From an uncultured Bacilli bacterium (GTDB lineage: Bacteria; Bacillota_I; Bacilli_A; RF39; UBA660), in contig CAXHRJ010000002.1 in the NCBI GenBank assembly GCA_964018915.1, forward strand, positions 274,155 through 338,154: 64,000 nt of DNA, read 5' to 3'. Shown one piece after another: positions 23,257-43,187 of this stretch. The notes beneath the pieces were generated by a model, which had not been told where the DNA came from, ran no database searches, and was given only the letters and a program-made list of their open reading frames with translations. Each line of letters begins with the position of its first letter. Position 1 is the stretch's first letter. The position numbers and the translations under genes are program-made.

Positions 23257-23273
23257 TTGGAAGGAGGGTATAT

Positions 23274-23813: not shown

Positions 23814-23829
23814 GACTTAGGAGGAAATT

Positions 23830-24015: not shown

Positions 24016-24029
24016 AAGGAGGGAAGTAT

Positions 24030-24425: not shown

Positions 24426-24438
24426 AAAGGATGATTTT

Positions 24439-24972: not shown

Positions 24973-24990
24973 TAGTAAAGGAGAGAAACT

Positions 24991-25353
24991 ATGATAAAAA
25001 AAGTAGCTCGTAATGAAGCACGTCAAGCAAGACACACTCGTGTTAGAGCAAAAGTATCAGGTACAGCTAGTGTACCTAGATTAAATGTTTTTAGATCAAA
25101 TAGTAATATTTTTGCACAAATAATTGATGATGAAAAAGCCGTTACTTTAGTTAGTGCCTCTTCTATCGATAAAGAGTTAAAGCTTGAAAATGGTAGTAAC
25201 GTTGAAGCAGCAACTAAAGTAGGAGAGTTATTGGCTAAGAGAGCAAAAGAAGCAAAAATAACAAAAGTAGTTTTTGATAGAGGTGGATACCTATATCATG
25301 GACGTGTAAAAGCACTAGCAGATGCAGCACGTGAAAACGGATTAGAATTCTAA
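24991..25353 (+). CDS. rplR: 50S ribosomal protein L18
   Basis: Conserved L18. Confidence 0.95.
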
Positions 25354-25363
25354 AAGGAGGGTA

Positions 25364-25981
25364 ATGATGGAAGAGAAAATCGAAAAAGTAGAAGCAGTTG
25401 AAACTGAAGAAAATACAAATACTGAAAAAACTTCAAGACCTGCGAAAAGAGAACCTCGTAATAGAGGAGAAAAACGTCAAAGAGATTCAAGACAAAGACA
25501 ACCAAAACTTTATGAAGAAGCTACCATTGCTATCGGCCGTGTTACAAAAGTAACAAAAGGTGGACGCCATTTCCGTTTCTCAGCTGTTGTAGTAGTTGGA
25601 GATAGAAAGGGTAAAGTAGGTTTAGGAACTGGTAAAGCAAATGAAGTACCAGATGCTATTAAGAAAGCTAAAGAAGCTGCTGTTAAAAATATCGTTAGCG
25701 TTTCTTTAGTTGATAACCGTACTATCCCACATGAAGCAATTGGTGTTTGTAGCGCTAGTAAAGTTATGTTAAAACCAGCTGCTAAAGGTACTGGAATTAA
25801 AGCCGGTGGTGCTGTTCGTAAAGTACTTGAAATGGCAGGAGTTAAAGACATTTTATCTAAATCACAAGGATCTAAAACAAAGATTAATACTGCATATGCA
25901 ACTTTAAGAGCATTACAGTCACAAAAAAGCGTAGAGGAAGTAGCACGTCTACGTGGAAAGAAAGTAGAGGACTTGATATAA
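25364..25981 (+). CDS. rpsE: 30S ribosomal protein S5 with a Lys/Arg/Glu-rich N-terminal extension of about 45 aa
   Basis: S5 core ([14 protein letters not shown]) preceded by a charged extension. Confidence 0.95.
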
Positions 25982-25982
25982 T

Positions 25983-26426
25983 ATGAAATTACATACATTA
26001 TATCAGCCAGAAGGCGCTGTTAAAGAAAGAAAAAGAGTCGGACGTGGAGTTGCTACAGGAAACGGTAAGACTGCAGGAAAAGGACATAAAGGTCAAAATG
26101 CAAGAAGTGGTGGAGGAGTAAGACCTGGATTTGAAGGTGGACAATTACCTTTATTCAGACGTTTACCAAAGAGAGGATTCTCTAATGCACCATTCAAAAT
26201 TGAATATGCAACAATTAATGTTAGTGATTTAGACAAATTTGAAGATGGAGCAGTTGTTACTCCAGAATTATTAAAAGAAATGGGAATTTTGAAACAACAA
26301 TTAGATGGTGTTAAAGTATTAGGTAATGGAGAATTAACTAAGAAAATCACTGTTAAAGCTAATAGATTCTCAAAGACTGCTGTTGAAAAAATAGAGAAAA
26401 TAGGTGGAAAAGCAGAGGTGATTTAA
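25983..26426 (+). CDS. rplO: 50S ribosomal protein L15
   Basis: Conserved L15. It starts 2 nt after the rpsE stop, leaving no room for rpmD (L30). Confidence 0.95.
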
Positions 26427-26427
26427 T

Positions 26428-27687
26428 ATGTTTGCAACAGTTAAGCAAATATTTAATCCAAAGAATAGAGATATTCAAAAGAAAATCCTATTTACGTTTG
26501 CTGCCCTATTTATCTTTAAACTAGGAACTATTATTCAAGTACCAGGAGTAAATCTTGATACAAAAGGATTAGGTTTTCTAGAAATTGTAAATGCAATGAG
26601 TGGGGGGGCATTTGAGAAAGCCTCAATATTTGCACTAGGTGTAATGCCATATATTACTGCCTCAATTGCTATTCAATTGTTATCTATGGATATTATTCCA
26701 TATTTATCAGAACTTAGTAAGCAAGGTGGAGTTGGTAGAAATAAACTAAACCAAATAACGAGGATTGTAGGTATTGTACTTGCCTTTGTACAAGGTTATA
26801 TGTATTCATTCGCTTATATTAAGAATGGAGCAGCTATGGATTATATGTTATATTCCTTAGTATTAACAGCTGGTACAGCATTACTATTATGGATTGGTGA
26901 CCAAATTACTCAAAAGGGTATTGGAAACGGAACATCTATGATAATTATGGCAGGTATTATTACAACATTACCAACAATGTTCTCTAGTCTATGGACAGAG
27001 TTAATTACAAATGGTAATGGATTTATGGGAATATTAACATTTATCTTATTTGTTGTAGTATTCTTAGGAATTATTATTGGTGTTATTTTTGAGGAGTGCG
27101 CTGAGCGTAGAATTCCAATTCAATATGCTAATAAGTCAACAAGTATGTTAGGAAAACAAAATTATATTCCATTTAAATTAAATAGTGCTGGTGTAATGCC
27201 TGTTATCTTTGCATCAGCTATCATATCTATTCCACAGATAATCGCATCTTTTGTAAAGAACGCTGATTTTTCATTATTTATTACAAAGTATTTAAATTAT
27301 GAAACTTTAACAGGATTTGCATTATATGTAGTTTTAATTATCATATTTGCTTATATTTATACATTTATGCAATTAAAACCAAGTGAATTATCTGATAATT
27401 TAAATAAAAGTGGAGGATATATTCCAGGGGTAAGACCTGGTAAAGAAACAGAACAATACATTAAAAAGGTATTGAAAAGAATAACAATTGTTGGTGCTTG
27501 CTTTTTAGCACTACTTGCTTCACTTCCAATTCTATTTAGTAAGTTCTCAACATTACAAACAAGTATTACATTAAGTGGTACAGGGCTATTAATTGTAGTT
27601 GGAGTTGCACTTGAAACTTACAAACAATTAGAAAGTCAATTGGTTAGTAGAACCTATACAAAAGGAAGAAAAGGGAGAAGAAGATAA
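26428..27687 (+). CDS. secY: Preprotein translocase subunit SecY
   Basis: 10-TM SecY; operon position. Confidence 0.95.
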   Translation: MFATVKQIFNPKNRDIQKKILFTFAALFIFKLGTIIQVPGVNLDTKGLGFLEIVNAMSGGAFEKASIFALGVMPYITASIAIQLLSMDIIPYLSELSKQGGVGRNKLNQITRIVGIVLAFVQGYMYSFAYIKNGAAMDYMLYSLVLTAGTALLLWIGDQITQKGIGNGTSMIIMAGIITTLPTMFSSLWTELITNGNGFMGILTFILFVVVFLGIIIGVIFEECAERRIPIQYANKSTSMLGKQNYIPFKLNSAGVMPVIFASAIISIPQIIASFVKNADFSLFITKYLNYETLTGFALYVVLIIIFAYIYTFMQLKPSELSDNLNKSGGYIPGVRPGKETEQYIKKVLKRITIVGACFLALLASLPILFSKFSTLQTSITLSGTGLLIVVGVALETYKQLESQLVSRTYTKGRKGRRR

Positions 27688-28340
27688 TGAAGAGTATAAT
27701 ATTTATTGCGCCACCAGCAGCTGGCAAAGGAACACATTCAACTTTAGTTGAAGAGAAGTATGGAATTCCTCATATTTCTACAGGAGATTTACTTAGAAGC
27801 GCAAAGAATGCTAACGATGATCGTGCAAAATTGATTTCAGATTTAATTGAACAAGGACGTCTTGTTCCAGATGAAATAGTTTTAGAGTTATTGAAAGAGA
27901 GATTAGCTCAAGAGGATTGTAAAAATGGTTACATTTTAGATGGGTTTCCAAGAAATGTATCACAAGCAGATGCTTATGAGAGGATTCTTTCAGAAATCGG
28001 TATGCCTCTTGGAAATGTTATACTATTAGAGCTTGACAAAGAAATTGCAAAGAAAAGAATTACTGGACGTTTAACTTGTCCAAAGTGTAATGCAATTTAC
28101 AATAGTGAGGCAGAAGAGTTGAAGCCAAAAGTAGATGGTTATTGTGATAATTGCCATGTAGAATTACAACATCGCTCTGATGATAATGCAGAAACTTATG
28201 ATGTAAGATATGATACTTACATGAAAGAGACTGCTCCTTTAATCGATTATTATGATGCAAAAGGTGTATTATTTAGAATCGATAGTAGTGTAGGAAAAGT
28301 TCTTACATTTAAGGAAATTGAGAAAATCATAGGGGAATAA
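27687..28340 (+). CDS. adk: Adenylate kinase (zinc-lid type)
   Basis: P-loop GPPAAGKGT; lid CPKC...CDNC. Confidence 0.95.
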   Translation: MKSIIFIAPPAAGKGTHSTLVEEKYGIPHISTGDLLRSAKNANDDRAKLISDLIEQGRLVPDEIVLELLKERLAQEDCKNGYILDGFPRNVSQADAYERILSEIGMPLGNVILLELDKEIAKKRITGRLTCPKCNAIYNSEAEELKPKVDGYCDNCHVELQHRSDDNAETYDVRYDTYMKETAPLIDYYDAKGVLFRIDSSVGKVLTFKEIEKIIGE

Positions 28341-28342
28341 TC

Positions 28343-29089
28343 GTGATTAGTATAAAAACTGAACGTGAGATTGAACTTTTAAAAATAGCTGGAGAAATAG
28401 TAGGGGATACACATAAACATTTGATTCCCTACTTGAAACCTGGCATAACAACAAAAGAGATTGATACATTGGCTAGAGACTACATTATTAGTAGGGACGC
28501 AACTCCATCTTGCTATCATTACGATGGATATCCTGCCAACATCTGTATTTCTATTAATGAAGAAGTTGTGCATGGAATTGCTAGTAATCGAAAATTAAAA
28601 GATGGCGATATTGTCACACTCGATATCTGTGCTTGTTATAAAGGATATCATGGTGACTCTGCTTGGAGTTATGCAGTCGGCAATGTTAGTGAGGAAAAAA
28701 AATATCTTCTAGAACATACTGAAAAGGCTTTATATAAAGGTTTAGAAGTAATTAAAGAAGGTACCCATGTAGGGGACATCGGTTATGCAGTAGAGACTTA
28801 CGCTTTGGAACACAACTTAGGGGTTGTAAAAGAGCTGGTTGGGCATGGAGTTGGAAACGAGTTACATGAAGATCCAGAGGTTCCAAATTATGGTCATAAG
28901 AATACTGGCCCAGTATTAAAAGAAGGAATGGTAATTGCAGTAGAGCCTATGCTTAATTTGGGTACTGCAGACGTATACTTATTAGATGATGATTGGACAG
29001 TAGTTACTGCTGATGGGGAACCATCTGCTCACTTTGAACATACAGTATTAATCACAAAAGAAGGATATACGATATTGACGAAGAGGTGA
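28343..29089 (+). CDS. map: Methionine aminopeptidase type I
   Basis: GTG start; MAP metal-binding residues. Confidence 0.9.
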
Positions 29090-29093
29090 TAAA

Positions 29094-29309
29094 ATGGCGA
29101 AGCAAGATGTTATCGAAATGGAAGGTAAAGTGTTAGAAGTTTTACCTGGCTACAATTTTAAAGTAGAATTAACGAATAAACATGTTATTACGGCACATGT
29201 ATCAGGTAAAATGCGAATGAACATGATTCGTATTTTAGCTGGAGATACAGTAACGGTTGAACTTTCAACCTACGATTTATCACATGGTCGTATAATTTAT
29301 CGAAAGTAG
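29094..29309 (+). CDS. infA: Translation initiation factor IF-1
   Basis: [13 protein letters not shown]... Confidence 0.95.
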
Positions 29310-29319
29310 GAGGGATTAT

Positions 29320-29433
29320 ATGAAAGTTAGAGCATCAGTAAAACCAATGTGTGAAAAATGTAAAGTTATTAAACGTAAGGGTCGTGTTATGGTAGTTTGT
29401 ACAAACCCAAAACATAAACAAAGACAAGGTTAA
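29320..29433 (+). CDS. rpmJ: 50S ribosomal protein L36 (37 aa; absent from the ORF track)
   Basis: [37 protein letters not shown]; GGAGGG RBS. Confidence 0.9.
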
Positions 29434-29448
29434 TATAGGAGGTGTTTT

Positions 29449-29814
29449 ATGGCACGTATTAAAGGTGTAGATATACCAAATAATAAGAGAATCGAAATCG
29501 CATTAACTTACATCTATGGGATTGGTAGAAGTTTATCAAACCAAATCTTAAAAGATGCTAAAGTTGATATTAATAAAAGAGCTGGAGAATTATCTCTAGA
29601 TGAATTAAATGCTATTCGTGACGAAGTTAATAAATATACTACTGAAGGTGATTTACGTCGTGAAGTTAATATGAATATTAAAACTAAGATGGAAATCAAT
29701 TCTTACCAAGGAACTCGTCATAAAAGAGGTTTACCAGTAAGAGGACAAAGAACAAATAGAAATGCTCGTACTCGTAAAGGTAAAGGAAAAGTAGTTGCTA
29801 ATAAGAAGAAATAG
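29449..29814 (+). CDS. rpsM: 30S ribosomal protein S13
   Basis: [10 protein letters not shown]... Confidence 0.95.
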
Positions 29815-29838
29815 TGGTAACTAAAAGGAGGTTATAAA

Positions 29839-30222
29839 ATGGCGTATAAAGCAAGAAAAAGAAAAGTTAAAAAGTCTGTACCAGAAGGTAGAGCTTATAT
29901 CCATTCAACATTCAACAATACAATTGTAACCATCACTGATAATGAAGGTAATGCAATTAGTTGGGCTTCTGCAGGAACTTTAGGATTTAAAGGATCTAAG
30001 AAGTCAACTCCATTCGCTGCTGGTATGTCAGCTGAAGCAACTGGTAAAGCAGCTTATGATATGGGAATGAGAAAAGTTGAAGTATTTGTTAAAGGGTTAG
30101 GATCAGGAAGAGAAACAGCAATTCGTTCACTTCAAACAGCAGGGTTAGAGATTACATCTATAACTGATGTTACACCTATACCACATAACGGATGTCGTCC
30201 ACCAAAACGTCCACGTGGATAA
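29839..30222 (+). CDS. rpsK: 30S ribosomal protein S11
   Basis: Conserved S11. Confidence 0.95.
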
Positions 30223-30242
30223 TAAAGAAAAGGAGTGGGGAA

Positions 30243-31193
30243 ATGTTAAATTTTGAGAAACCAACATATAAAATTACTGAGTATGTTGAAAACAAAAATT
30301 ATGGTAAATTTGAATTAGAACCTTTAGAGAGAGGTTTTGGAACAACTTTAGGTAATGCTCTTAGAAGAATTATGCTATCTAGCATGCCTGGAAGTGCTAT
30401 TGTAGCTGTTAAAATTGATGGCGTAATGCATGAGTTCCAAACAATAGATGGAATCGTAGAAGATGTTACTACAATTATTTTAAATTTAAAAAATGTTGTT
30501 GTAAAAAATAATTCATCAGAAGTACAAATCATTAAATTATTCTCAGATAAAGAGGGTACAGTAACTGCTGCTGATATTGAAACAAATAGTGATGTAGAAG
30601 TTATTTCTAAAGATCAAGAAATTGCAACTATTGCAAAAGGTGGTAAACTTGATATGGAATTAATGATTGCTAATGGAAGAGGATATGTTCCATCAACTGA
30701 TAACAAATCATTTGTTGATAATGAGAAAAAAGGTTTTATTCCAATTGATGCGCTTTACTCACCTATTGAAAGAGTTAGTTATGAAACAGAGAGTGCTCGT
30801 GTAGGACAAGATGCTAACTATGATAAATTAATCATGGAAGTATTTACAAATGGTTCTATTCGTCCTGAAGAGGCAATGGCACTTGCTGCTAAAATCATGA
30901 TTGAACATTTAAACATCGTCACTAATTTAAGTGAAATTGCAGATATTACAGGAATCATGAATGCTAAACAAGAAGATAGCAAATTAAAGAAATTAGAAAC
31001 ATCAATCGATGATTTAGATTTCTCTGTAAGAGCTTACAATTGCTTAAAAAGAGCTGGAGTTAATACATTAGGAGATTTAACTTCTAAATCAGAATTAGAA
31101 ATGATGAAAATTCGTAATCTAGGTAAAAAGTCTTTAAAAGAAGTAATCGATAAGATTAAAGAAATGGGACTTAAATTCCGTGAAGACGATTAG
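30243..31193 (+). CDS. rpoA: DNA-directed RNA polymerase subunit alpha
   Basis: MLNFEKPTYKI... NTD, and CTD (LDFSVRAYNCLKRAG). ATG 30243 follows an AAAGGAGTGGGG RBS; the track's upstream extension is unlikely. Confidence 0.95.
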   Translation: MLNFEKPTYKITEYVENKNYGKFELEPLERGFGTTLGNALRRIMLSSMPGSAIVAVKIDGVMHEFQTIDGIVEDVTTIILNLKNVVVKNNSSEVQIIKLFSDKEGTVTAADIETNSDVEVISKDQEIATIAKGGKLDMELMIANGRGYVPSTDNKSFVDNEKKGFIPIDALYSPIERVSYETESARVGQDANYDKLIMEVFTNGSIRPEEAMALAAKIMIEHLNIVTNLSEIADITGIMNAKQEDSKLKKLETSIDDLDFSVRAYNCLKRAGVNTLGDLTSKSELEMMKIRNLGKKSLKEVIDKIKEMGLKFREDD

Positions 31194-31209
31194 TAGTTAG
31201 GAGGATATT

Positions 31210-31566
31210 ATGGCTTATAGAAAATTAGGACGTACAAATAAACACAGAAGAAGTATGCTTGCTAACCTAACTAGAGACGTTATCATGAAAGAAAGAATCG
31301 AGACAACAGAAACAAGAGCTAAAGAAGTTCGTAAGTTTGTTGATAAGATGATTACTTATGGTAAAGATGGTTCTTTAGTAGCAAGAAGAAAAGCATTAGC
31401 TTTCTTACATAATGATACAGAGGCTGTTAAGAAAGTATTTGATGATTTAGCACCACGTTTTGCAAAACGTAATGGTGGATATACAAGAATTTTAAAATTA
31501 ACTGAACGTCGCGGAGATGACGCTTTAGAGGTTATTTTAGAGTTAGTAGAAGGAGATGCTGCATAA
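31210..31566 (+). CDS. rplQ: 50S ribosomal protein L17
   Basis: [14 protein letters not shown]... Confidence 0.95.
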
Positions 31567-31636
31567 GCGTCTTTTTTTGTATTTATTTTTGATAATATAT
31601 GATATAATTGGAATATGAAAATATGGGGAGGTATTT

Positions 31637-32262: not shown

Positions 32263-32964
32263 GTGATAGAAACAATAATTTGTGATGATGACAAAAGTTG
32301 TAGAAATGCAGTAGCTAGTGTAGTAAAAGAATTTTTTAATGAAAAGAAAATATCTCATAAAATAGTGAAGTATGCAGATTATAATGAAAAGTTTATTCAA
32401 GATATTACACCAGGTGGTAAAAAGATTTATATCTTAGATATCGAAACTCCTAGTCGTTCAGGAATAGATATTGCTAGAATTATTAGAAAAAGAGATGTAG
32501 AAAGTATTATTATCTTTGTAACTGGTTATGAAGAATTTAGTAAATTAGTTTTAAAGAAAAATATTATGTGTTTATCATTTATTAATAAATTCGATCACTT
32601 AAATGAAAATTTAAAAGAATCATTGGAAGAATCTCTTCATTTCTTTGAAACTAATAAAGTGTTGAGAATTACAGACAATGGAATAACTTATAATATTCGT
32701 TTAAATACAATTCTATATTTTACCAGAGATAGTCTAGATAGAAGAACAATAATCAAATGTGATAAAACAGAATATAAATTAAAAATGACTTTGGCTGAAG
32801 TAAAAGAAATATTCGGAGATAAGTTTATTCAAACACATAGAAGTTGTTTTGTAAATGAACAAAGAATAGATACAATAGACCATAAGAATAAAATTATTAC
32901 ATTTGACAATGGTGTAACTATTGATTTATTATCTGATACTTATAGAAAGGAGTTGATGAGATGA
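32263..32964 (+). CDS. agrA: LytTR-family response regulator (AgrA-like)
   Basis: N-terminal receiver (acidic pocket CDDD; LDIETP Asp) plus a C-terminal LytTR domain (FIQTHRSCFVN). GTG start with an AGGAGG RBS. Overlaps the downstream kinase (ATGA). Confidence 0.8.
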   Translation: MIETIICDDDKSCRNAVASVVKEFFNEKKISHKIVKYADYNEKFIQDITPGGKKIYILDIETPSRSGIDIARIIRKRDVESIIIFVTGYEEFSKLVLKKNIMCLSFINKFDHLNENLKESLEESLHFFETNKVLRITDNGITYNIRLNTILYFTRDSLDRRTIIKCDKTEYKLKMTLAEVKEIFGDKFIQTHRSCFVNEQRIDTIDHKNKIITFDNGVTIDLLSDTYRKELMR

Positions 32965-34256
32965 AGTATGCTGTATCGTTTTTAATCATTCATTTGTGTT
33001 TTACTATTTCAATGGGATTATTAGCAAACGAAAAGATTAATCTAAAAAATAAACGGTTTTTACTGTCCTTTTTTGTCACATGGATTTTATTAGTTCTAAA
33101 CTTTGAATATTCTATATCTTCTATAAGAGTAATCCTTAATATAGGTATTTATATGTTATTGGCAAAATTATTATTTGACAAGAATTTTAAAGAGTCAATA
33201 ATATTGGGGATGTTAGTAACAATATTGGGAATATGTGCAGAGTTTGCATATGTTATAATAACATATCCAATTTTTCATTATAATTCAGTTTTAGAAGAAA
33301 AAATAAATATGGTGTTTGTTAATAATTTGGGAACAGGTATATTGATGATTCTTTTCTGTGTTTTAAAAAAAATTAGGAATCTATATGATATGGTTCTTTC
33401 ATCAACAAACAAAATTAGTGAAAAACACATAGCGCTTTTTTCTTTATTTATTGTTGCGATATTTAATTTTGTTAGCTTGATTTCATATTATATATCTAAA
33501 GATTTAATAGACAAGTTTTATTTTACTTTGATAGGGTCATTTTTATATGTTTTTAGTGCTATTCTAATTTTTCTCTATTTTAAGACACAAAGTAAATATT
33601 TAACTTTTTATGAGAAATATAATGTATCATTAGAAAGTATTAGAGAATTTGAAATGACGATAGAAAGATATAGGATCAATACTCATGAGAATAAAAATCA
33701 ATTTCGCACTATTAGAAATATGAGTAAGAATAAAAAGATTGTATCTTATATTGATGCACTGTTAACAGATAATATTAGTGATGATGAGAAGTTACTAATA
33801 GAAACTCAACGAATCCCAGCTGGTGGCTTAAGAGGAATAATTTATTCCAAGTTGTTATTGATGCAACAGGAAAATATTCCATTTGAATTGGTTATAGATA
33901 AAAAAATTACTATAGAAAAAACTAATAAAATAGATGATTATACTTTAACATCTGTTTGTAGAATTTTAGGAGTATTATTAGATAATGCTATTGAAGAGGT
34001 CAAAAAGTTGGATAATAAATATATAATGGTTGAATTATATGAAGAAGATAAAGATATAGTAATTTCTATTACAAATAATTATGAAGGGTATGTAGATATT
34101 GAAGCTATCAATAATCCTGGTATATCATCAAAAGGTAAGAATCATGGATATGGTCTATCTTTAGTTCAAAAATTAGTCAGAAAAAATAAAAAAATCCAAC
34201 AGAGTAGTGAATTTTTTGAGGATAATTTTATGCAAAAGTTAATAATAAAAGTGTAG
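32961..34256 (+). CDS. agrC: AgrC-like (HPK10 family) sensor histidine kinase
   Basis: Six or seven N-terminal TM helices. C-terminal GHKL ATPase region (LLDNAIEE N-box; GYGLSLV G-box). Confidence 0.8.
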   Translation: MKYAVSFLIIHLCFTISMGLLANEKINLKNKRFLLSFFVTWILLVLNFEYSISSIRVILNIGIYMLLAKLLFDKNFKESIILGMLVTILGICAEFAYVIITYPIFHYNSVLEEKINMVFVNNLGTGILMILFCVLKKIRNLYDMVLSSTNKISEKHIALFSLFIVAIFNFVSLISYYISKDLIDKFYFTLIGSFLYVFSAILIFLYFKTQSKYLTFYEKYNVSLESIREFEMTIERYRINTHENKNQFRTIRNMSKNKKIVSYIDALLTDNISDDEKLLIETQRIPAGGLRGIIYSKLLLMQQENIPFELVIDKKITIEKTNKIDDYTLTSVCRILGVLLDNAIEEVKKLDNKYIMVELYEEDKDIVISITNNYEGYVDIEAINNPGISSKGKNHGYGLSLVQKLVRKNKKIQQSSEFFEDNFMQKLIIKV

Positions 34257-34278
34257 AATTTCTACACTTTTTATTTGA
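34248..34278. terminator. Bidirectional terminator shared by convergent agrC and agrD
   Basis: GTGTAGA-att-TCTACAC hairpin with an A-run before and a T-run after. Confidence 0.5.
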
Positions 34279-34396
34279 TTAATGATTTAGGGCATTCTGG
34301 TTCGTCAACTGTAAAGAAAATTAAACAACCTACTTCACATGTACTTGCTACAAAAGCCCCAATGTGTGAAAGTATCCCAGCTAAAAATCCTAACAT
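34271..34396 (-). CDS. agrD: AgrD-like autoinducing-peptide precursor (41 aa; absent from the ORF track)
   Basis: MLGFLAGILSHIGAFVASTCEVGCLIFFTVDEPECPKSLIK. Amphipathic leader, Cys-containing core (CLIFF) and conserved C-terminal recognition motif (DEPECPKSL; compare C. perfringens ...CLWFTHQPEEPKSL). AGGAG RBS 7 nt before the ATG. Start overlaps the agrB stop. Confidence 0.8.
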   Translation of the reverse strand: MLGFLAGILSHIGAFVASTCEVGCLIFFTVDEPECPKSLIK

Positions 34397-35013
34397 ACTG
34401 CAACTCCTTCCTCTTTTTTGAGATAGTTCAAATAATTGTTATAAGGGAGTTTGAATATGCGATATGTTATAGGGGAAATCATGATATCTATTAATAGCAT
34501 GCTCATAAAAAAGCAATTTGATAAAAAGTTATTTGTTATAGAAATAGAGATGATTACGTATATGATTGCTGTCAGTGTTGCTAGTAATTTATGACGTAAT
34601 CTTTTTTGCTTATCTATAATTGGCCTTTTCTTCGTATCTGCAGGGCTGTTCTTGAAGATGAGAATGCTTGCTACTATTCCCAGTACATATTTTATCAGAA
34701 ATGGAACTCTCAAGTTCATTGCAACAAGTGGTATTCCCAGAAAAGCTACAGAAGATGTGATTAGACACACCCAGCTCTTCGTTGCATGTATACCATACGC
34801 ATTGTTTCTCAGAATTGCAAATATTATTAGGAAACACGCACATTCTCTTTGAATTTCTAGCAAATACGCTATTATTATGATAATAATTAGTTTTGTTATT
34901 GATAAATATACACCTGCTAATCCATATTCAATTTGTTCTAATTCCACATTTGTTAAATGTGGTTTTTCTTTTTTTATAAGTTTCATACAATTTCCTACAA
35001 AAACATTTCTCAT
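34390..35013 (-). CDS. agrB: AgrB-like membrane peptidase (AIP processing and export)
   Basis: Polytopic membrane protein of AgrB size with a basic cytoplasmic loop. Start MRNVF at 35013 has an AAAGGAG RBS. Directly upstream of agrD. Confidence 0.75.
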   Translation of the reverse strand: MRNVFVGNCMKLIKKEKPHLTNVELEQIEYGLAGVYLSITKLIIIIIIAYLLEIQRECACFLIIFAILRNNAYGIHATKSWVCLITSSVAFLGIPLVAMNLRVPFLIKYVLGIVASILIFKNSPADTKKRPIIDKQKRLRHKLLATLTAIIYVIISISITNNFLSNCFFMSMLLIDIMISPITYRIFKLPYNNYLNYLKKEEGVAVC

Positions 35014-35059
35014 ACTGCCTACTCCTTTATACGATTGAAATTGTAACATGAATGAATTT

Positions 35060-35150
35060 GTTTTAAAATAGAAAATGTTCCAAATACCTAAAATCGTGTT
35101 CGAAATGGTAGAAAGAGGATTTCAGACACGATTTTTTCCATTTCGAGCAC
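35060..35150. promoter_or_regulatory. agrBD promoter region with repeated AACA(CG)TTTT-type motifs and two crossing inverted repeats (candidate LytTR binding sites)
   Basis: A TACAAT -10 (minus strand, about 35040-35045) lacks a good -35. Upstream lie motifs AAAATGTTCC (35072-81) and AAAATCGTGTTCG (35090-102). The inverted repeats are AAAATCGTGT/ACACGATTTT and TCGAAATGG/CCATTTCGA. Confidence 0.35.
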
Positions 35151-35293: not shown

Positions 35294-35509
35294 GTGATAA
35301 CAGGTAAGGTAAAATGGTTCAATAACGAAAAAGGTTATGGATTTATTGAGTACAAAGACATGGAAGATATTTTTGTACATTATTCAGCAATTTTATCAGA
35401 AGGATATAAAACATTAGTTGAAGGTCAATATGTCACTTTTGAATTAGTTAGAACTGATAAAGGTTTACAAGCTAAGAATGTAGTAGAAAATAAAACTGCG
35501 GTAGTTTAG
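35294..35509 (+). CDS. csp: Cold-shock protein (CspA family)
   Basis: [17 protein letters not shown] motifs. GTG start 35294 with an AGAAGGGAG RBS; the track's upstream extension is unlikely. Confidence 0.85.
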
Positions 35510-37432: not shown

Positions 37433-37519
37433 GAAAAATTCTTAAAAGTTAGGGGATATGCTATGATTTCTAAAGAATATTTGATAAAATAGATATGGAT
37501 ACAAAAAGGAGAATGGGAC

Positions 37520-40006
37520 ATGAAGTTTTTAAAGAAAATATTTGATCATGAATATAAACAATTAGAGAGATTTCGCAAGATTGCTGACCAAGTAATAGCA
37601 CTTGAAGATGAATATGCGAAATTATCTGATAAAAAATTAAAAGCAAAGACAGAGGAATTCAAAAAACGTTTAGAAGACGGAGAAACATTAGAAGATATTA
37701 AGGTAGAAGCATTTGCAACTGCAAGAGAGGCTGCTTTCCGTGTTATTGGAGAAAGAGCTTACTACGTTCAGATTTTAGGTGGTCTTGCTATTCACTATGG
37801 TAATATTGCAGAAATGAAGACTGGTGAAGGTAAAACTTTAACAGCTACTATGCCAGCCTATTTAAATGCGTTAACTGGTGAAGGTGTTCATATTATTACA
37901 GTTAATGAATATCTTGCTGGACGTGATGCAGAATGGATGGGGGAAGTATATCGCTTTTTAGGACTTACAGTAGGCGTTAACTATAGGGAATTAACTCCTA
38001 GTGAAAAGAAAGAGGCTTACAATTGCGATATTCTTTATTCAACAAATAATGAAATTGGATTTGATTATTTAAGGGATAATATGGTTATTAAAGCTTCTGA
38101 TAGAGTTGCTAGGCCATTTAATTTTGTTATTATTGATGAGGTTGACTCTGTATTAATTGATGAGGCAAGAACTCCACTTATTATTTCTGGTGGACATATG
38201 CAGTCTGCTAATTTATATATCCAAACAGATAAGTTTGTAAAAGGATTAAAAGAAAATGAGGGGTATATCTATGATGAGCAAACAAAGGCTACTATTTTAG
38301 ATCAAACTGGTATTGAAAAAGCAGAAAAAGCATTTAAGGTTAATAACTTATATGATATTGAAAATACTAATTTAGTTCATTTTATTAATCAAGCATTAAA
38401 AGCTAATTTTTCAATGAAGAAAGATTTTGATTATGTAGTGGAAGATGACAAAGTAATTATTGTAGATCCTTTTACTGGTCGTTTAATGCAAGGAAGATCT
38501 TATTCTGATGGTTTACATCAAGCAATTGAAGCTAAAGAGGGAGTTACTATTAATGAAGAAACTAAGACTTTAGCAACTATTACGTTCCAAAATTTATTCC
38601 GCATGTATAAAAAACTTGCTGGTATGACAGGTACTGCTAAAACAGAAGAAGAAGAGTTTAGAGATATTTATAATATGTATGTTATCTGTATTCCAACAAA
38701 TAAGCCAGTTTCTCGTAAAGATTATGGAGATTTGCTATTTGCAACACAAGAGGGAAAATTTAATGCGATTGTAAAAGAGATTAAAGAACGTCATGCAGCA
38801 GGACAACCAGTATTAGTTGGTACTGTTGCTGTAGAAACGAGTGAGCTTATTAGTGAAAAGTTAAAAAAGGCAAAAGTTCCTCATGAAGTATTAAATGCTA
38901 AAAATAATGCTCGTGAAGCTGAAATTATTGCTAAAGCTGGTGAAAAAGGCGCTGTAACAATAGCTACTAATATGGCAGGACGTGGAACAGATATTAAGAT
39001 TAATGATGAAGTTAAAGAATTAGGTGGTCTTTGCGTTATTGGTACAGAACGCCATGAATCACGCCGTATCGATAATCAGTTGCGTGGACGTTCTGGTCGT
39101 CAAGGAGATCCAGGATTCTCTCAATTCTGTGTATCTTTTGAAGATGATTTAATGGTTCGATTTGGTACTGATAAAGCAAAAGGATTACTTGCTAGAATGG
39201 GATTTGATGGGGAAGCTGCTATTCGTAATAAAATGCTTTCTAATTCTATTGAAGCAGCACAGAAACGTGTAGAAGGTAATAACTTTGATGTTCGTAAAAC
39301 ATTGCTAGAATATGATAATGTTATTAATGAACAAAGAGAAGTTATTTATGAAAAAAGAAATGAAATATTGGATTCTGAGTCTATTCATGAAACGATATTA
39401 GATAGTTTCCATAACTTTGTTGAAGATGTGTTCTATGAACATATGGAAGATGGAGATTTAAGTCAAGAAGATAGAGAAGAAATGGCTACTTATTTTACAG
39501 AAATGTTAGGAACAGAAATTTCAGCTGCTGAATATGAAGAAAAAGATTTAGATGCTGAAATTGAATATATTTATGGAAGATTAGTAGAAAACTATGAAAA
39601 TAAAATTGAAGAGGTTCCAACTGAAATAGTTAATGAGTTTGAGAAAGCTATTACGCTAAGGGTAATTGATACTTATTGGATGGAACATATCAATACAATG
39701 GCTCATTTAAGAGAAGGTATTTATTTACGTGGATATGCGCAAGAAAATCCATTACGTGCTTATAAGAGTGAAGGATATGAATTGTTTGATAATTTATTAG
39801 CACGTATTGACAGACAAGCTTCCATTTATTTATTAAAGGCTGAAGTAAGACAAAACGTAGAACGTAAGAAAGTAGCAGAAGGTGTTGCTAATAACGATTC
39901 CAATAAAGTAAAAAAGCAATCTCCAAAAAGAGTTGCGAAAGTAGGAAGAAATGACAAATGCCCTTGTGGCTCAGGTAAGAAATATAAGCAATGTTGTGGA
40001 AAATAA
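37520..40006 (+). CDS. secA: Preprotein translocase ATPase SecA
   Basis: DEAD-like motor motifs (MKTGEGKT; DEVDSVLIDEARTPLIIS) and a C-terminal zinc-binding tail (KCPCGSGKKYKQCCG). Confidence 0.95.
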   Translation: MKFLKKIFDHEYKQLERFRKIADQVIALEDEYAKLSDKKLKAKTEEFKKRLEDGETLEDIKVEAFATAREAAFRVIGERAYYVQILGGLAIHYGNIAEMKTGEGKTLTATMPAYLNALTGEGVHIITVNEYLAGRDAEWMGEVYRFLGLTVGVNYRELTPSEKKEAYNCDILYSTNNEIGFDYLRDNMVIKASDRVARPFNFVIIDEVDSVLIDEARTPLIISGGHMQSANLYIQTDKFVKGLKENEGYIYDEQTKATILDQTGIEKAEKAFKVNNLYDIENTNLVHFINQALKANFSMKKDFDYVVEDDKVIIVDPFTGRLMQGRSYSDGLHQAIEAKEGVTINEETKTLATITFQNLFRMYKKLAGMTGTAKTEEEEFRDIYNMYVICIPTNKPVSRKDYGDLLFATQEGKFNAIVKEIKERHAAGQPVLVGTVAVETSELISEKLKKAKVPHEVLNAKNNAREAEIIAKAGEKGAVTIATNMAGRGTDIKINDEVKELGGLCVIGTERHESRRIDNQLRGRSGRQGDPGFSQFCVSFEDDLMVRFGTDKAKGLLARMGFDGEAAIRNKMLSNSIEAAQKRVEGNNFDVRKTLLEYDNVINEQREVIYEKRNEILDSESIHETILDSFHNFVEDVFYEHMEDGDLSQEDREEMATYFTEMLGTEISAAEYEEKDLDAEIEYIYGRLVENYENKIEEVPTEIVNEFEKAITLRVIDTYWMEHINTMAHLREGIYLRGYAQENPLRAYKSEGYELFDNLLARIDRQASIYLLKAEVRQNVERKKVAEGVANNDSNKVKKQSPKRVAKVGRNDKCPCGSGKKYKQCCGK

Positions 40007-40029: not shown

Positions 40030-40458
40030 ATGGATATGGATGGTAATGTAACTTACTTTGGTGAGTGGACAGAACAAATTGATAAACATAATCGTCGTCA
40101 AGTTCATGATTATAGTTTTGAAGATGATGTACTATCTAAAGACACATTTCGAAGATTAAATTTGAAATACGATAGAGAAATGGGATTCTTTGGAAAAGCC
40201 ATAGCCTTCGCTTTACAAGGCATGGTAGTTATGCAAAATAGGACGAGTCAGGGGATTAGTAGTTTTATAATGTATGCTTCAGAACAATTAACAGAGAAAC
40301 AAAAAGATAAATTTGTTGAACTGTATCCCCTTTTATCATCTTTTGCAGAAGTTAATGTTGTAATTCCTAAATCTGTATGTATTACAGATGAGGATACAAT
40401 CGATAGCGTAGATGATTATTATGAAATGTATGGTATTTTCCCTTCAAAAGTAAGATAG
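40030..40458 (+). CDS. Hypothetical protein (142 aa)
   Basis: ORF only; weak RBS; no motif recognised. Confidence 0.35.
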   Translation: MDMDGNVTYFGEWTEQIDKHNRRQVHDYSFEDDVLSKDTFRRLNLKYDREMGFFGKAIAFALQGMVVMQNRTSQGISSFIMYASEQLTEKQKDKFVELYPLLSSFAEVNVVIPKSVCITDEDTIDSVDDYYEMYGIFPSKVR

Positions 40459-40474
40459 TTTATGGGGAGCAAAT

Positions 40475-41188
40475 ATGGATGAATATATAAGAGATAATAT
40501 TTTTAAAGAATATCAAAGTCGTTATCAAGATTTAGTAACATTAAATCAAAAAATAGAGGATATTAAGATAAATAGAAAACCTATTCTCATTGAATTCTTA
40601 GGATCGGCTAGAAGTGGCAAATCTACTTCAATCGAATTAATTTCAGATGTTTTAAGAAAGCATGGATTAAAAGTTTTTGTAGTAGATGAGGAAAAAGTAA
40701 AATTAACAAAAGTGATTAATGAAAGCCGAAGTAAAAAAATGCAAGTAGACAGTTTAGATTATACGAATCAAGTGATTGATGAGAAGGTTTTGCTGTTTGA
40801 TAGTTTTTATCAAAATGATGAGGATGTTATTATTTTTGACAGAGGTATTAATGACGAATTTATTTGGTTAGATACTTTTGGTGCTACGAATTCTAAAATA
40901 GAAGAATATGACAAAAAGTTACAGGATAGGAAAGTAGATATTTTGATTATTCAAACATGTGATGTAGAGGTAAGTTTAAAAAGAAAATATTTTAATTCAT
41001 TATCTATAATGCCCAATAAATGGACAAACTTTGAAACATTATCTAAGTATTTAGGTGGGTTAGAGAAGGTATCTAAATATTTTAATAATCATGCAAAAGT
41101 AATTCATTATATAGATAGTTCTAAAATAGATAAAGTAGAGGTTGCAATGGAGATTTGTAATCAAATAATAGATGATATAAATCAGTAA
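40475..41188 (+). CDS. P-loop NTPase, nucleoside/nucleotide kinase-like
   Basis: Walker A FLGSARSGKST and a DR motif (IFDRGINDE) reminiscent of the dNK/TMPK fold. Confidence 0.4.
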   Translation: MDEYIRDNIFKEYQSRYQDLVTLNQKIEDIKINRKPILIEFLGSARSGKSTSIELISDVLRKHGLKVFVVDEEKVKLTKVINESRSKKMQVDSLDYTNQVIDEKVLLFDSFYQNDEDVIIFDRGINDEFIWLDTFGATNSKIEEYDKKLQDRKVDILIIQTCDVEVSLKRKYFNSLSIMPNKWTNFETLSKYLGGLEKVSKYFNNHAKVIHYIDSSKIDKVEVAMEICNQIIDDINQ

Positions 41189-41213
41189 AATGAGGCTTAG
41201 AAAGAGGGATATT

Positions 41214-42281
41214 ATGGCAAATAAAAAGAAAAATACAGAAGAAGAAACAGTAAAAAATAAAAAAAATAATGTAAAAAAGAATGATTCAAAGAAAAATGAA
41301 GTAAAAAAAGAACCAGTAAAGAAAGATGAAAAAGTAGAAATTGAAAGCCCTATAAAAAGTGGAATGAGTGAAACAACTAGAGGTATGATTATTGGAATGA
41401 TTATTATGGGGCTTATTTCGATTATTATTATTTTATTAATTTTAGGAAAAAATGATAATGCTAATAAACCTAGTGGTTCTGGAAGTAATTCTTCAAATAT
41501 TACTGCCAGTGCAGATTATGCAAAATTATCAGCAGCAGATAAGAAAAAAGGTAGCGAGGAAATGCAAAAATTTTATCAATATTTTGATAAAGATAAGCCA
41601 ACGTTAATTGTGTTTGCAAGTACAAGTTGTGGATGGTGTGAGTTACAGAAACCAATTGTAGAAAGAATTGGAAAAATGTATGATTTAGATTATCTATTTA
41701 TGGATGCAACAAAATTAGAAGGTAGTGAAGTATATGATGTCATTTCTTATTTAGGGATTGAAGGAACTACACCTACTTCTCTTGTAGTACAAGATGGAAA
41801 AGTTTTAAGCTCATTAAATGGAATGCGAGAAGGTAAAGATTTTGTTGAATTTTTAGTAGATGGTGGAGTTTTATCAAAAGGTTCTACCTATAAAGATGAA
41901 GAAAACTTAATTGTTGTAACTTATGAAAAATTTGAAGAACTATTAAAAGGAAAAGATACAAGTGTTGTTTTATTTGATTTCTATGCAGTTTCAAGTTCTG
42001 TTTGTGGAGAAAGATGTTTAGATCAAAGAATTGTTATTAATGAAATTGCTAAAGAAAATAATATTCCAGTATACCATTTACCTTTAGCGAATACGACAGA
42101 TGATTTTATTGATAAATTAGGAGAATGGGGATATTCAACTGACGATTACAAAGAAAATAAATCTGTAGGAATTCCGTTATTAATGTTTGTACGTGATGGA
42201 AAATTAGTATGGTATCAAAATGGTAATATGACAGAAGATGATATTCGTACAGAAATGAAGAATCATAAAATAATTAAATAA
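41214..42281 (+). CDS. Membrane-anchored protein with two thioredoxin-fold domains (CGWC and CGERC)
   Basis: Lys-rich N-terminus, one TM helix, a Ser/Gly linker, then two Trx-like modules each with a CxxC-type motif and a cis-Pro TPT/IP motif. AGAAAGAGGGA RBS before ATG 41214. Confidence 0.6.
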   Translation: MANKKKNTEEETVKNKKNNVKKNDSKKNEVKKEPVKKDEKVEIESPIKSGMSETTRGMIIGMIIMGLISIIIILLILGKNDNANKPSGSGSNSSNITASADYAKLSAADKKKGSEEMQKFYQYFDKDKPTLIVFASTSCGWCELQKPIVERIGKMYDLDYLFMDATKLEGSEVYDVISYLGIEGTTPTSLVVQDGKVLSSLNGMREGKDFVEFLVDGGVLSKGSTYKDEENLIVVTYEKFEELLKGKDTSVVLFDFYAVSSSVCGERCLDQRIVINEIAKENNIPVYHLPLANTTDDFIDKLGEWGYSTDDYKENKSVGIPLLMFVRDGKLVWYQNGNMTEDDIRTEMKNHKIIK

Positions 42282-42302
42282 ATGATTTAGGAAGTGGTTT
42301 AT

Positions 42303-43166
42303 ATGAGTAAAGATAAGAAAAAAGAAAATCTTATTAAGAATAAAACTTTAATGGTTGGTCTTATTTCTGTTATGATTATTGTTTTAGTATCGTTATTAGG
42401 ATATGTGATTTTTACTAAGATATCTAAATACCAAGACGAGAAAAAAACAATGCAAGAATTTCGTGAAAAGATGGAAAGTAAAGAGTTATCCATTATTTAT
42501 TACATGCATACTGATTGTCATTTTTGTGAAATGGAAAAACCTATTTTAGAACAAATTGCTAAGGACTATGATTTTGAGTATTTAACAATTGATTCTAATA
42601 AATTGACAAAAAAAGAAAATAATGAAGTAAAAGATGCTTTAAAAATCGAAGGAAGAACGCCAACTATCGCAATTGTAAAAGATGGTGAAGTGCAGGCTAC
42701 TCATGTAGGATATCTTGAAGGTTATAAATTAGTAGAGTTTTTTGTGAAAGCTGAATTTTTAGATGAGGGTTCAACTTATAAACCTGAAGCCAATTTAACT
42801 TTTATAGAATTTTCTGAGTTTGAAGAATTAAAAGAAGAAGAAAAAACATCTGTTTTGGTGTTAGGCTCAGCAACTTGTGACTATTGTAAAGCTGTACGTC
42901 CTATTTTAAGTAATCTTAGCAAAGCTTATAATATTCCAATCTATTATTTAGGATTAAATTATATTGGAAGTTCTAATGGTGACAAGTTTGAAAGTTATTT
43001 GAAAGATATGGGATATGATGAAGAGACTTTTGTAAACTCTGGTAAGTATAGTACACCAGCAGTATTAGTTATTAAAAACGGAAAAATAGTTTCTCATATA
43101 GAAGGTTACCAAGATACAGCTGATTATATCAAATATTTTAAAGAGCAAAAAGTGATTGAAGAATAA
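42303..43166 (+). CDS. Membrane-anchored double thioredoxin-fold protein (CHFC and CDYC); paralog of 41214..42281
   Basis: Same architecture, with a conserved inter-domain linker (GSTYK.E.NL....EFEEL). GGAAGTGG RBS. Confidence 0.6.
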   Translation: MSKDKKKENLIKNKTLMVGLISVMIIVLVSLLGYVIFTKISKYQDEKKTMQEFREKMESKELSIIYYMHTDCHFCEMEKPILEQIAKDYDFEYLTIDSNKLTKKENNEVKDALKIEGRTPTIAIVKDGEVQATHVGYLEGYKLVEFFVKAEFLDEGSTYKPEANLTFIEFSEFEELKEEEKTSVLVLGSATCDYCKAVRPILSNLSKAYNIPIYYLGLNYIGSSNGDKFESYLKDMGYDEETFVNSGKYSTPAVLVIKNGKIVSHIEGYQDTADYIKYFKEQKVIEE

Positions 43167-43187
43167 AGGGAAAAGGGAGTGCTATAA

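What the first reader, a model, noticed from the sequence alone, without database searches (positions are those of the whole stretch)
34271..34396. AgrD-like autoinducing-peptide precursor gene missing from the ORF track
On the minus strand, translationally coupled to the agrB stop, a 41-aa ORF encodes MLGFLAGILSHIGAFVASTCEVGCLIFFTVDEPECPKSLIK. It has the three-part AgrD layout: an amphipathic N-terminal leader, a Cys-containing core (CLIFF) and the conserved acidic/Pro C-terminal AgrB-recognition tail (DEPECPKSL). The tail matches the clostridial ...CLWFT-HQPEEPKSL pattern almost residue for residue. By analogy the mature signal would be a thiolactone macrocycle through Cys24 (CLIFF or CLIFFT). 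A second Cys, in STCEVG, could allow an alternative ring. This is the signal peptide for the adjacent two-component system, and it is easy to miss because it falls below ORF-caller length cutoffs.
Basis: partly seen in the sequence, partly recalled or inferred. Interest (0 to 1): 0.75.

Follow-up and report, generated by a model that had tools for sequence, protein, structure and literature searches.

The report
AgrD quorum-sensing peptide precursor gene
The 41-codon ORF is a genuine AgrD-type precursor of a cyclic quorum-sensing peptide in a complete agr locus of an uncultured gut Bacilli bacterium; it is an ordinary member of a known system, except that its ring is predicted to have seven residues rather than the usual five.

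Summary
A 41-aa ORF lies at 34271..34396 (-) with a strong ribosome-binding site, and its ATG overlaps the agrB stop by 7 nt. It passes NCBIfam TIGR04223 (AgrD family; 19.5 bits, cutoff 19) and falls just below the Pfam AgrD cutoff.

Intact homologues follow agrB in all 80 loci fetched, out of 111 matching species genomes. These are nearly all uncultured gut Bacilli/'Tenericutes' MAGs. The AgrC-like kinase and LytTR regulator lie convergent downstream.

Cys24 is the ring cysteine. It is invariant, whereas Cys20 is replaced by Gly or Ser in relatives, and the tail Cys35 by Met/Thr/Ala in the wider family.

In eight reference precursors with described ring sizes of 5, 6 and 9, the conserved Pro sits 6 residues after the ring end. 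Here that places the AgrB cut at V30|D31 and predicts a 7-residue ring, CLIFFTV. All six positions after Cys24 are hypervariable, next to an invariant DEPECPKSLIK tail.

A near-identical strain carries a different ring and a kinase only 60% identical, which resembles staphylococcal agr specificity groups.

Verdict: a new member of a known kind, of modest interest.

The parts
34271..34396 (-). agrD: 41-aa AIP precursor. It has a hydrophobic leader (residues 1-23), a predicted core C24-V30 (CLIFFTV) and a tail D31-K41 (DEPECPKSLIK).
   Evidence: sequence; PF05931 20 bits, below cutoff; TIGR04223 19.5 bits, above cutoff 19; conservation pattern; synonymous codon variation.
34390..35013 (-). agrB: 207-aa membrane cysteine peptidase/cyclase. 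Its start at 35013 follows a conserved AAAGGAG ribosome-binding site.
   Evidence: PF04647, E=1e-31. R69/G74/H76/C83 align with S. aureus R70/G75/H77/C84 and are conserved in 78-80 of 80 AgrB sequences (the window's and 79 relatives'). (conserved RBS and start). (the 207-aa product is a called gene).
32961..34256 (+). AgrC-like sensor histidine kinase, convergent with agrBD. It has about 7 hydrophobic segments in residues 1-205, a candidate phospho-accepting His242 and a GHKL ATPase domain.
   Evidence: HATPase_c_5, 3e-15. (full-length but sub-threshold match to staphylococcal AgrC, 2.2e-8). (hydropathy). (present and convergent in 72 of 80 loci). (hypervariable between close strains).
32263..32964 (+). 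AgrA-like response regulator (receiver plus LytTR DNA-binding domain), in an operon with the kinase.
   Evidence: LytTR 2e-14, Response_reg 2e-7, best NCBIfam hit AgrA 7.5e-13, sub-threshold. (66 of 80 loci).
34247..34271 (.). Hairpin AAAAGTGTAGAATTTCTACACTTTT between the two convergent stop codons, flanked by T runs on both strands. It is probably a bidirectional terminator for agrBD and for the kinase operon.
   Evidence: terminator scan; 2 found against 0.5 expected. (sequence).
35040..35067 (-). Promoter-like site for agrBD: TTTAAA, 16 nt, TG-TACAAT (extended -10).
   Evidence: One search shows the TGnTAnAAT element is conserved in all 11 aligned upstream regions.
35076..35149 (.). Four copies of TGYTYSAAAT arranged as two pairs with 21-bp register, 35076-35106 (+) and 35119-35149 (-). 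These are candidate LytTR-regulator boxes between agrB and the divergent csp gene.
   Evidence: The paired pattern occurs nowhere else in the 64-kb window at 1 mismatch or fewer. It sits at the same position in the 7 closest species. The pattern was derived from these sites and binding is not tested.

Best explanation
The ORF is agrD, the ribosomally made precursor of an autoinducing peptide (AIP). It belongs to a four-gene agr quorum-sensing locus in which agrB-agrD converges on the agrA-like and agrC-like genes.

Shown by sequence: agrD is co-transcribed with agrB and has its own ribosome-binding site. AgrB carries the catalytic R/G/H/C residues. The peptide has an invariant Cys24, six hypervariable hydrophobic residues, and then an invariant acidic, Pro-containing tail.

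Inferred by analogy with S. aureus and C. acetobutylicum: AgrB recognises the DEPECPKSL tail and cuts between V30 and D31. It then joins the V30 carboxyl to the Cys24 thiol, giving a 7-residue thiolactone, CLIFFTV, with predicted [M+H]+ 824.44. An unidentified membrane protease removes the hydrophobic leader, so the length of the N-terminal extension is unknown. If there is no extension, the thiolactone would rearrange to a lactam, as in clostridial cAIPs.

The secreted peptide would be sensed by the polytopic kinase. The kinase would phosphorylate the LytTR regulator, which would bind the repeat boxes upstream of agrB and so close an autoinduction loop.

Ring residues and the kinase diverge together between near-identical strains. 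This suggests strain-specific signalling groups.
For: Family assignment: TIGR04223 19.5 bits, above cutoff 19; PF05931 E=7e-4; AgrB PF04647 1e-31.

Synteny: all 80 related loci have agrB immediately upstream on the same strand, 72 have the kinase and 66 the regulator convergent downstream.

Ring Cys: C24 is invariant in 27 of 27 word/HMM-found homologues, while C20 is not.

Cut site: the reference precursors were verified as exact database entries. Their described rings are CDFIM, CSSLF, CLWFT, A[CFMFV], CVGIW, CVLVTL and QN[SPNIFGQWM]; the S. epidermidis ring CASYF is from my own knowledge. The 6-membered C. acetobutylicum AIP was confirmed by HRMS in PMC8251862, and its precursor sequence is in the PMC10301443 supplement. 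In all eight the conserved Pro is the 6th residue after the ring end. Alignment A2 keeps P36 as the only invariant column, and the tail aligns gap-free from D31. S. aureus AgrB cuts M32|D33, and D33/E34 are essential for cleavage (PMC10196373). D31/E32 occupy those positions here.

Variability: all positions between Cys and D have entropy of 1.4-2.8 bits in the window's 7-spacing clade and 2.4-3.4 bits in the 6-spacing majority, next to near-invariant flanks.

Unbiased profile search: spacing is 6 in 93 and 7 in 11 representatives.

AgrB catalytic residues are conserved.

Strain polymorphism: in L084, L17 is 100% identical, HPF 98.9%, the regulator 97%, AgrB 88%, the AgrD ring changes from LIFFTV to MVLFLV, and the kinase is only 59.6% identical.

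Promoter and boxes.
Against: There is no expression, peptide or binding data of any kind.

The Pfam AgrD score (20.0) is below the gathering cutoff (22.7).

The 7-residue ring rests entirely on analogy. No AIP with a 7-residue ring appears in the 2025 primer's table. AgrB could instead cut two residues earlier and leave a canonical 5-ring. Hypervariability at positions +5 and +6 would also fit an unconstrained spacer.

Tail invariance in the 80 genome loci is partly circular, because they were retrieved with the pattern DEPECP[KS]SL.

The kinase and regulator match the staphylococcal AgrC/AgrA equivalog models only far below their cutoffs.

The repeat-box pattern was derived from the same sites it 'finds', and it is recognisable in only 21 of 76 loci.
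Confidence: 0.88

Rival explanations
1. It is an AgrD precursor, but with the canonical 5-residue thiolactone CLIFF (or 6-residue CLIFFT). T29 and V30 would then be the first residues of a longer AgrB-recognition tail.
For: Five-residue rings are by far the commonest in characterised AIPs. Ring size has never been measured for this family. F28 would be a typical bulky hydrophobic ring terminus.
Against: In 8 of 8 reference precursors the ring ends exactly 5 residues before the conserved Pro, whatever the ring size (5, 6 or 9). That position is V30 here. The D-E pair essential for AgrB cleavage in S. aureus follows the scissile bond directly. Positions 29-30 are as variable as positions 25-28 and change between near-identical strains together with the kinase. 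The closest characterised tail type, C. acetobutylicum YEPKMPEEL, goes with a confirmed 6-ring that ends directly before the tail.
Confidence: 0.2
2. The macrocycle is closed through Cys20 (STCEVG...) rather than Cys24, or the mature signal needs a Cys20-Cys24 or Cys35 disulfide.
For: Cys20 is present in 23 of 28 members of the window's clade, and 'STC' resembles the S. aureus AIP-I 'YSTC'.
Against: Cys20 is Ser in a 90%-identical peptide with the same ring (P0027) and Gly in others. It is absent from all 73 six-spacing family members. MAFFT aligns Cys24, not Cys20, with the ring Cys of six reference AgrDs. Cys35 is replaced by Met, Thr, Ala, Ser or Val in the profile-found wider family, and it lies in the part removed by AgrB.
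Confidence: 0.03
3. The ORF is a chance open frame in AT-rich DNA and no peptide is made.
For: Short ORFs abound here (66 of at least 25 aa in 9 kb). The profile E-values are modest (about 1e-3).
Against: An intact ORF with an SD motif sits at the same position in all 80 loci fetched, out of 111 matching species genomes. Its synonymous codon variation includes TCN/AGY serine switches, and its conservation pattern is that of AgrD. No other small ORF beside agrB matches any Pfam family.
Confidence: 0.01

Closest known systems
Clostridium acetobutylicum AgrD / AIP (CA_C0079; ring CVLVTL)
   Same: It is a short precursor with Cys, a hydrophobic core and then an xEPxxPxxL tail (YEPKMPEEL against DEPECPKSL). 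Its ring is larger than five residues and ends directly before the tail, as confirmed by HRMS. agrBD and agrCA are separate transcription units.
   Different: The ring is 6 residues there against a predicted 7 here (6 in most of this family). The leader there is long and charged, whereas here it is short and uncharged. The units run in the same direction there but converge here. No LanM-like gene lies next to this locus.
Staphylococcus aureus / S. epidermidis AgrD (PF05931; agrBDCA)
   Same: The window peptide is 42% identical to S. aureus AgrD-I in alignment A2. The leader motif ILxxIG is shared, the tail DEPEVPEEL (S. epidermidis) is close to DEPECPKSL, and the acidic pair follows the cut site. 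AgrB R70/G75/H77/C84 are conserved. The core and the receptor are hypervariable between strains.
   Different: The ring has five residues there. The staphylococcal locus is a single agrBDCA operon with a divergent RNAIII. Here the kinase and regulator are convergent and the divergent neighbour is a cold-shock-domain gene. The Pfam score is below the gathering cutoff.
Clostridium perfringens AgrD (ring CLWFT, tail HQPEEPKSL)
   Same: The tail aligns gap-free with 6 of 9 identical residues (P, E, P, K, S, L). The core is hydrophobic and starts CL.
   Different: The core is two residues shorter. C. perfringens agrBD has no adjacent kinase and regulator; it signals through VirSR (this point is from my own knowledge).
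Enterococcus faecalis FsrD / GBAP
   Same: It shows that AgrB-family enzymes can make rings well above five residues (9), with the same Pro-at-+6 tail register.
   Different: It is a lactone through Ser rather than a thiolactone. The precursor is longer and is encoded in frame with fsrB.

Membership tests
AgrD family (cyclic lactone autoinducer peptide; NCBIfam TIGR04223 / Pfam PF05931) | The sequence matches the family profile above the curated cutoff. | tested here: met
   TIGR04223 scores 19.5 bits against cutoff 19, covering residues 2-41. Pfam PF05931 scores 20.0 bits, E=6.9e-4, which is below its gathering score of 22.7. The NCBIfam pass is by a narrow margin and the Pfam model fails.
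AgrD family | A small ORF (about 40-55 aa) immediately downstream of agrB and co-oriented with it. | tested here: met
   The ORF has 41 aa and overlaps the agrB stop by 7 nt. The same arrangement is found in 80 of 80 related loci.
AgrD family | A three-part layout: hydrophobic/amphipathic leader, Cys (or Ser) core, and charged tail with a conserved Pro. | tested here: met
   Alignment A2 with eight reference precursors has P36 as the only invariant column, and Cys24 aligns with the ring Cys. The leader is hydrophobic but only weakly amphipathic.
AgrD family | An acidic pair directly after the scissile bond (S. aureus D33/E34, required for AgrB cleavage). | tested here: met
   D31 and E32 are invariant. 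The S. aureus requirement is cited from PMC10196373.
AgrD family | A core that is hypervariable between relatives, with conserved flanks. | tested here: met
   Entropy at the core positions is 1.4-2.8 bits in the window's 7-spacing clade and 2.4-3.4 bits in the 6-spacing majority, against near zero in most flanking positions. The ring differs between near-identical strains.
Canonical (staphylococcal-type) AIP | A five-residue macrocycle, with the ring Cys exactly 5 residues before the tail start. | tested here: not met
   The Cys-to-tail spacing is 7 here and 6 in most of the family. This spacing is the only evidence for ring size, and the actual ring has not been measured.
agr quorum-sensing system | An AgrB with the catalytic His and Cys plus R70 and G75. 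| tested here: met
   R69/G74/H76/C83 are aligned and conserved in 78-80 of 80 AgrB sequences (the window's and 79 relatives'). The S. aureus sequence used was recalled from memory, but its numbering agrees with PMC10196373.
agr quorum-sensing system | A cognate polytopic HPK10-type kinase and a LytTR response regulator. | tested here: met
   The domains are HATPase_c_5, about 7 TM-like segments, LytTR and a receiver. The best NCBIfam hits are AgrC and AgrA but lie far below the equivalog cutoffs. These proteins are therefore AgrC/AgrA-like rather than orthologues.
agr quorum-sensing system | Autoinduction: regulator binding sites (direct repeats in a 21-bp register) upstream of agrB. | tested here: inconclusive
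   Two pairs of TGYTYSAAAT with 21-bp spacing are unique in the window and positionally conserved in the 7 closest species. The pattern was derived from the sites themselves and binding is untested.
agr quorum-sensing system | Production of a secreted cyclic (thio)lactone peptide that activates the kinase. | not testable with these tools
   This needs LC-MS/MS and reporter assays. The organism is known only from metagenome assemblies.

The most novel reading that the evidence does not exclude
This family of agr loci is found in over a hundred species of uncultured gut Bacilli/'Tenericutes'-labelled genomes. It may make AIPs with non-canonical 6- and 7-residue macrocycles. The window's clade would then be the first case of a 7-residue AIP ring. 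The cold-shock-domain gene that is divergent from agrB in 76 of 80 loci may be the directly Agr-controlled output, in the position that RNAIII holds in S. aureus.
Probability: 0.25. Interest if true: 0.55.

Novelty: new member of a known kind. Interest (0 to 1): 0.3.

Why it matters
The locus shows that a complete peptide quorum-sensing circuit exists in a lineage known only from metagenomes, and that it has strain-level signal/receptor polymorphism. That suggests cell-cell signalling and possibly cross-inhibition among gut bacteria that have never been cultured.

The predicted cyclic peptide is short enough to be made chemically. Synthetic CLIFFTV, and the allelic MVLFLV and VLFFAI rings, could serve as probes or cultivation aids. 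They would also test whether AgrB enzymes make 7-residue rings.

For annotation, the lesson is routine: look for agrD directly after every agrB.

Tried and rejected
- A PDB sequence search with AgrB found no solved relative.
- Supplements of PMC8251862 and PMC11953309 are not held as text, so precursor tables and gut AIP family sequences could not be checked.
- Literature searches for AgrD+RF39, for the tail motif DEPECPKSL and for seven-membered AIPs returned nothing relevant. This covers only the held library.
- The repeat finder did not report the short direct repeats upstream of agrB. They were found by alignment and a pattern search.
- Other small ORFs around agrB (35063-35152 -, 34275-34421 +, 34339-34494 +, 34439-34516 -, 35075-35179 +) have no Pfam match at E of 10 or less. 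No better AgrD candidate exists.
- Three long repeat proteins in the profile search (P0135, P0195, P0241) are low-complexity false positives, not multi-core precursors.
- I considered a role for the tail Cys35 and rejected it as essential. It is Met, Thr, Ala, Ser or Val in the wider family.
- A fused AgrB-AgrD model could not be submitted under the tool's input rules, so no structure-based test of ring size was made.

Full report
**1. The observation**

The minus strand of 34271..34396 carries an ATG-to-TAA ORF of 41 codons. The ATG sits inside GTATGTTAG, so it overlaps the TAG stop of the upstream ORF by 7 nt. GAGGAAGGAG lies just upstream.

The upstream ORF is AgrB (PF04647, E=1e-31). Its real start is the ATG at 35013, behind a conserved AAAGGAG, which gives 207 aa. 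Convergent with agrBD are a LytTR response regulator (32263..32964) and a 431-aa kinase (32961..34256). The kinase has a GHKL domain of the AgrC type, about seven hydrophobic segments in its first 205 residues, and a candidate His242. A hairpin with T runs on both sides (34247..34271) lies between the two stop codons and looks like a shared terminator.

**2. Is it a real gene, and is it AgrD?**

Short ORFs are common in this AT-rich DNA, so length alone proves nothing. Four lines of evidence show the gene is real.

- *Profile matches.* The peptide scores 19.5 bits on NCBIfam TIGR04223 ('AgrD family cyclic lactone autoinducer peptide', cutoff 19). It scores 20.0 bits on Pfam AgrD, just under the 22.7 cutoff.
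- *Homologues.* A word-plus-HMM search of 5.8 billion proteins found 25 relatives of 37-47 aa. The exact sequence is already a called gene in NCBI-derived and Logan assemblies.
- *Synteny.* A scan of one genome per species found 111 genomes encoding a relative, and 80 loci were fetched. Nearly all are uncultured gut 'Bacilli' or 'Tenericutes' MAGs from mouse, rabbit, human, chicken and ruminants. Examples are Acholeplasma sp. CAG:878, Firmicutes bacterium CAG:822 and Candidatus Faecisoma. In all 80, the ORF is intact, has its own Shine-Dalgarno motif and follows agrB on the same strand. In 72 and 66 loci respectively, the kinase and the regulator are convergent downstream; the rest are cut by contig ends.
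- *Protein-level selection.* The eleven tail codons occur in 52 different nucleotide versions, and serine is encoded by both TCN and AGY.

No other small ORF near agrB matches any Pfam family.

**3. Which cysteine, and where does the ring end?**

Among the 27 homologues that were not selected by any tail pattern, Cys24 and the tail DEPECPxSLIK are invariant. Cys20 is Gly in four sequences and Ser in one that is 90% identical and has the same ring. Across 102 distinct sequences, Cys20 exists only in the window's own clade, in 23 of 28 members. MAFFT aligns Cys24 with the ring Cys of S. aureus I and II, S. epidermidis, C. perfringens, L. monocytogenes and L. plantarum.

The third cysteine, Cys35 in the tail, looked invariant only because the genome scan used the pattern DEPECP[KS]SL. 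A profile search that read all 1.84 billion representatives found Met, Thr, Ala, Ser, Val or Phe at that position in many relatives. Cys35 is a lineage habit rather than a requirement.

To place the C-terminal end of the ring, I calibrated on precursors whose AIP rings are described:

- My recalled sequences of eight reference precursors all exist exactly in the collection under AgrD or FsrB names.
- Their rings are listed in a 2025 primer: CDFIM, CSSLF, CLWFT, A[CFMFV], CVGIW, CVLVTL and QN[SPNIFGQWM]. The S. epidermidis ring CASYF is from my own knowledge.
- The 6-membered C. acetobutylicum ring was confirmed by HRMS (PMC8251862). Its precursor...GKCVLVTLYEPKMPEELL..., is printed in the supplement of PMC10301443.

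In all eight, whatever the ring size (5, 6 or 9), the conserved proline is the sixth residue after the last ring residue. In S. aureus, AgrB cuts M32|D33, and D33/E34 are essential for cleavage (PMC10196373).

In the window peptide, P36 is the only column invariant across all eleven aligned sequences, and the tail aligns without gaps from D31. By this rule the cut is V30|D31 and the ring is C24-V30, CLIFFTV, seven residues.

The variability pattern agrees with this. Every position between Cys24 and D31 is hypervariable and hydrophobic, while the flanking positions are nearly fixed. In the wider family the Cys-to-Asp spacing is 6 in 93 representatives and 7 in 11. The family norm is therefore the C. 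acetobutylicum-type 6-ring, and the window's clade carries one extra residue.

This is inference by analogy, and no ring in this family has been measured. I put the 7-ring at roughly 0.6-0.65, a 5- or 6-ring at about 0.2-0.25, and anything else at the remainder. Predicted [M+H]+ values are 824.4375 (CLIFFTV), 725.3691 (CLIFFT) and 624.3214 (CLIFF).

**4. The processing enzyme and the circuit**

AgrB keeps the residues required for S. aureus AgrB activity, with identical spacing. R69, G74, H76 and C83 correspond to R70, G75, H77 and C84, and they are conserved in 78-80 of 80 AgrB sequences, the window's and 79 relatives'.

Upstream of agrB is an extended -10 promoter, conserved in all eleven aligned relatives. 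Just upstream of its -35 lie four copies of TGYTYSAAAT. They form two pairs in a 21-bp register (35076-35106 and 35119-35149), the geometry typical of LytTR regulators (from my knowledge of AgrA boxes). With at most one mismatch, the paired pattern occurs nowhere else in the window. It sits at the same distance from agrB in the seven closest species. Because the pattern was derived from these sites, this is suggestive only.

**5. Strain polymorphism**

A metagenomic contig from a very close relative (L084) can be compared gene by gene with the window:

| Gene product | Identity to window |
|---|---|
| Ribosomal protein L17 | 100% |
| Cold-shock-domain protein | 100% |
| Hibernation factor | 98.9% |
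| Response regulator | 97% |
| AgrB | 88% |
| AgrD | 85% (ring changes from LIFFTV to MVLFLV) |
| Kinase | 59.6% |

This matches the pattern of staphylococcal agr specificity groups, except that here the whole kinase is divergent, not only its sensor half. It is indirect support that residues 25-30 are the signal and that this kinase is its receptor.

**6. Comparison with known systems, and novelty**

The locus meets the defining sequence features of the AgrD/AgrB system (see the membership table). It fails only the 'five-residue ring' spacing of the staphylococcal prototype. That feature does not define the family, since rings of 6 and 9 residues are known.

The nearest characterised relative in layout is C. 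acetobutylicum AgrD. The leader and tail also resemble staphylococcal AgrD, with 42% identity to AgrD-I in A2.

Gut-microbiome AIP families have already been surveyed at scale (PMC11953309). I could not check whether this family is among them. The held literature contains no mention of the DEPECPKSL tail, or of AgrD together with RF39.

I therefore rate it a new member of a known kind. The possible novelty is limited to an unmeasured 7-residue ring and to its host lineage.

**7. Verdict**

Three details are wrong or overstated: the ring prediction, the 'second Cys' idea and the claim that the gene is 'missed'. Interest is modest (0.3). A specialist would not be surprised by an agrD after agrB. 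They might take interest in the ring size, the strain-level allelic diversity in uncultured gut Bacilli, and the conserved divergent cold-shock-domain gene.

Noticed in passing
window 35294..35509 (+), and loci L004-L083: A cold-shock-domain (CspA-like) gene is transcribed divergently from agrB, 190-360 bp away, in 76 of 80 related loci. The other flanking genes (GH25 lysozyme, hexapeptide transferase) are conserved only in the 7 closest species. The candidate LytTR boxes lie in this shared intergenic region, so csp may be an Agr-controlled output.
   Followed up: partly
window 32961..34256 compared with L084 4151..5446: The AgrC-like kinase is only 59.6% identical between two strains whose flanking genes are 97-100% identical. 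The divergence spans the whole protein, not only the sensor domain.
   Followed up: partly
window 50804..52300 (+): A 498-aa protein has a CPBP/Rce1-like (PF02517) membrane protease domain. I recall the S. aureus leader peptidase MroQ belonging to this family, which was not checked here. The protein is a speculative candidate for removing the AgrD leader and lies 16 kb from the agr locus.
   Followed up: no
proteins P0133, P0169, P0181, P0184, P0186, P0187, P0189, P0192, P0196, P0222, P0234: About ten representatives of the wider family lack the ring Cys and have Ser or Thr before the hydrophobic core. This suggests lactone-type AIPs like GBAP within the same family.
   Followed up: no
protein P0213: A 236-aa ORF fuses AgrB and an AgrD-like C-terminus (...ACTLIIMDEPNCPLSLIK) in one frame, reminiscent of the fsrB/fsrD arrangement. 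It could also be an assembly or frameshift artefact.
   Followed up: no
window 41190..44474 (+): Three consecutive ORFs (363, 290 and 428 aa) each carry thioredoxin-fold domains. The preceding ORFs at 40030..41188 have no Pfam match.
   Followed up: no
window 1..31600 and 37500..40000: The context is core chromosome near the replication origin: ParA/ParB, YchF, SSB, the large ribosomal-protein cluster, rpoA, L17 and secA. Almost every gene is on the + strand, and agrBD is one of the few on the minus strand.
   Followed up: no
window 123..2285, 6569..8272, 48573..50171, 52419..54008 (+): Four large ORFs (720, 567, 532 and 529 aa) have no Pfam match at E of 1e-5 or less.
   Followed up: no
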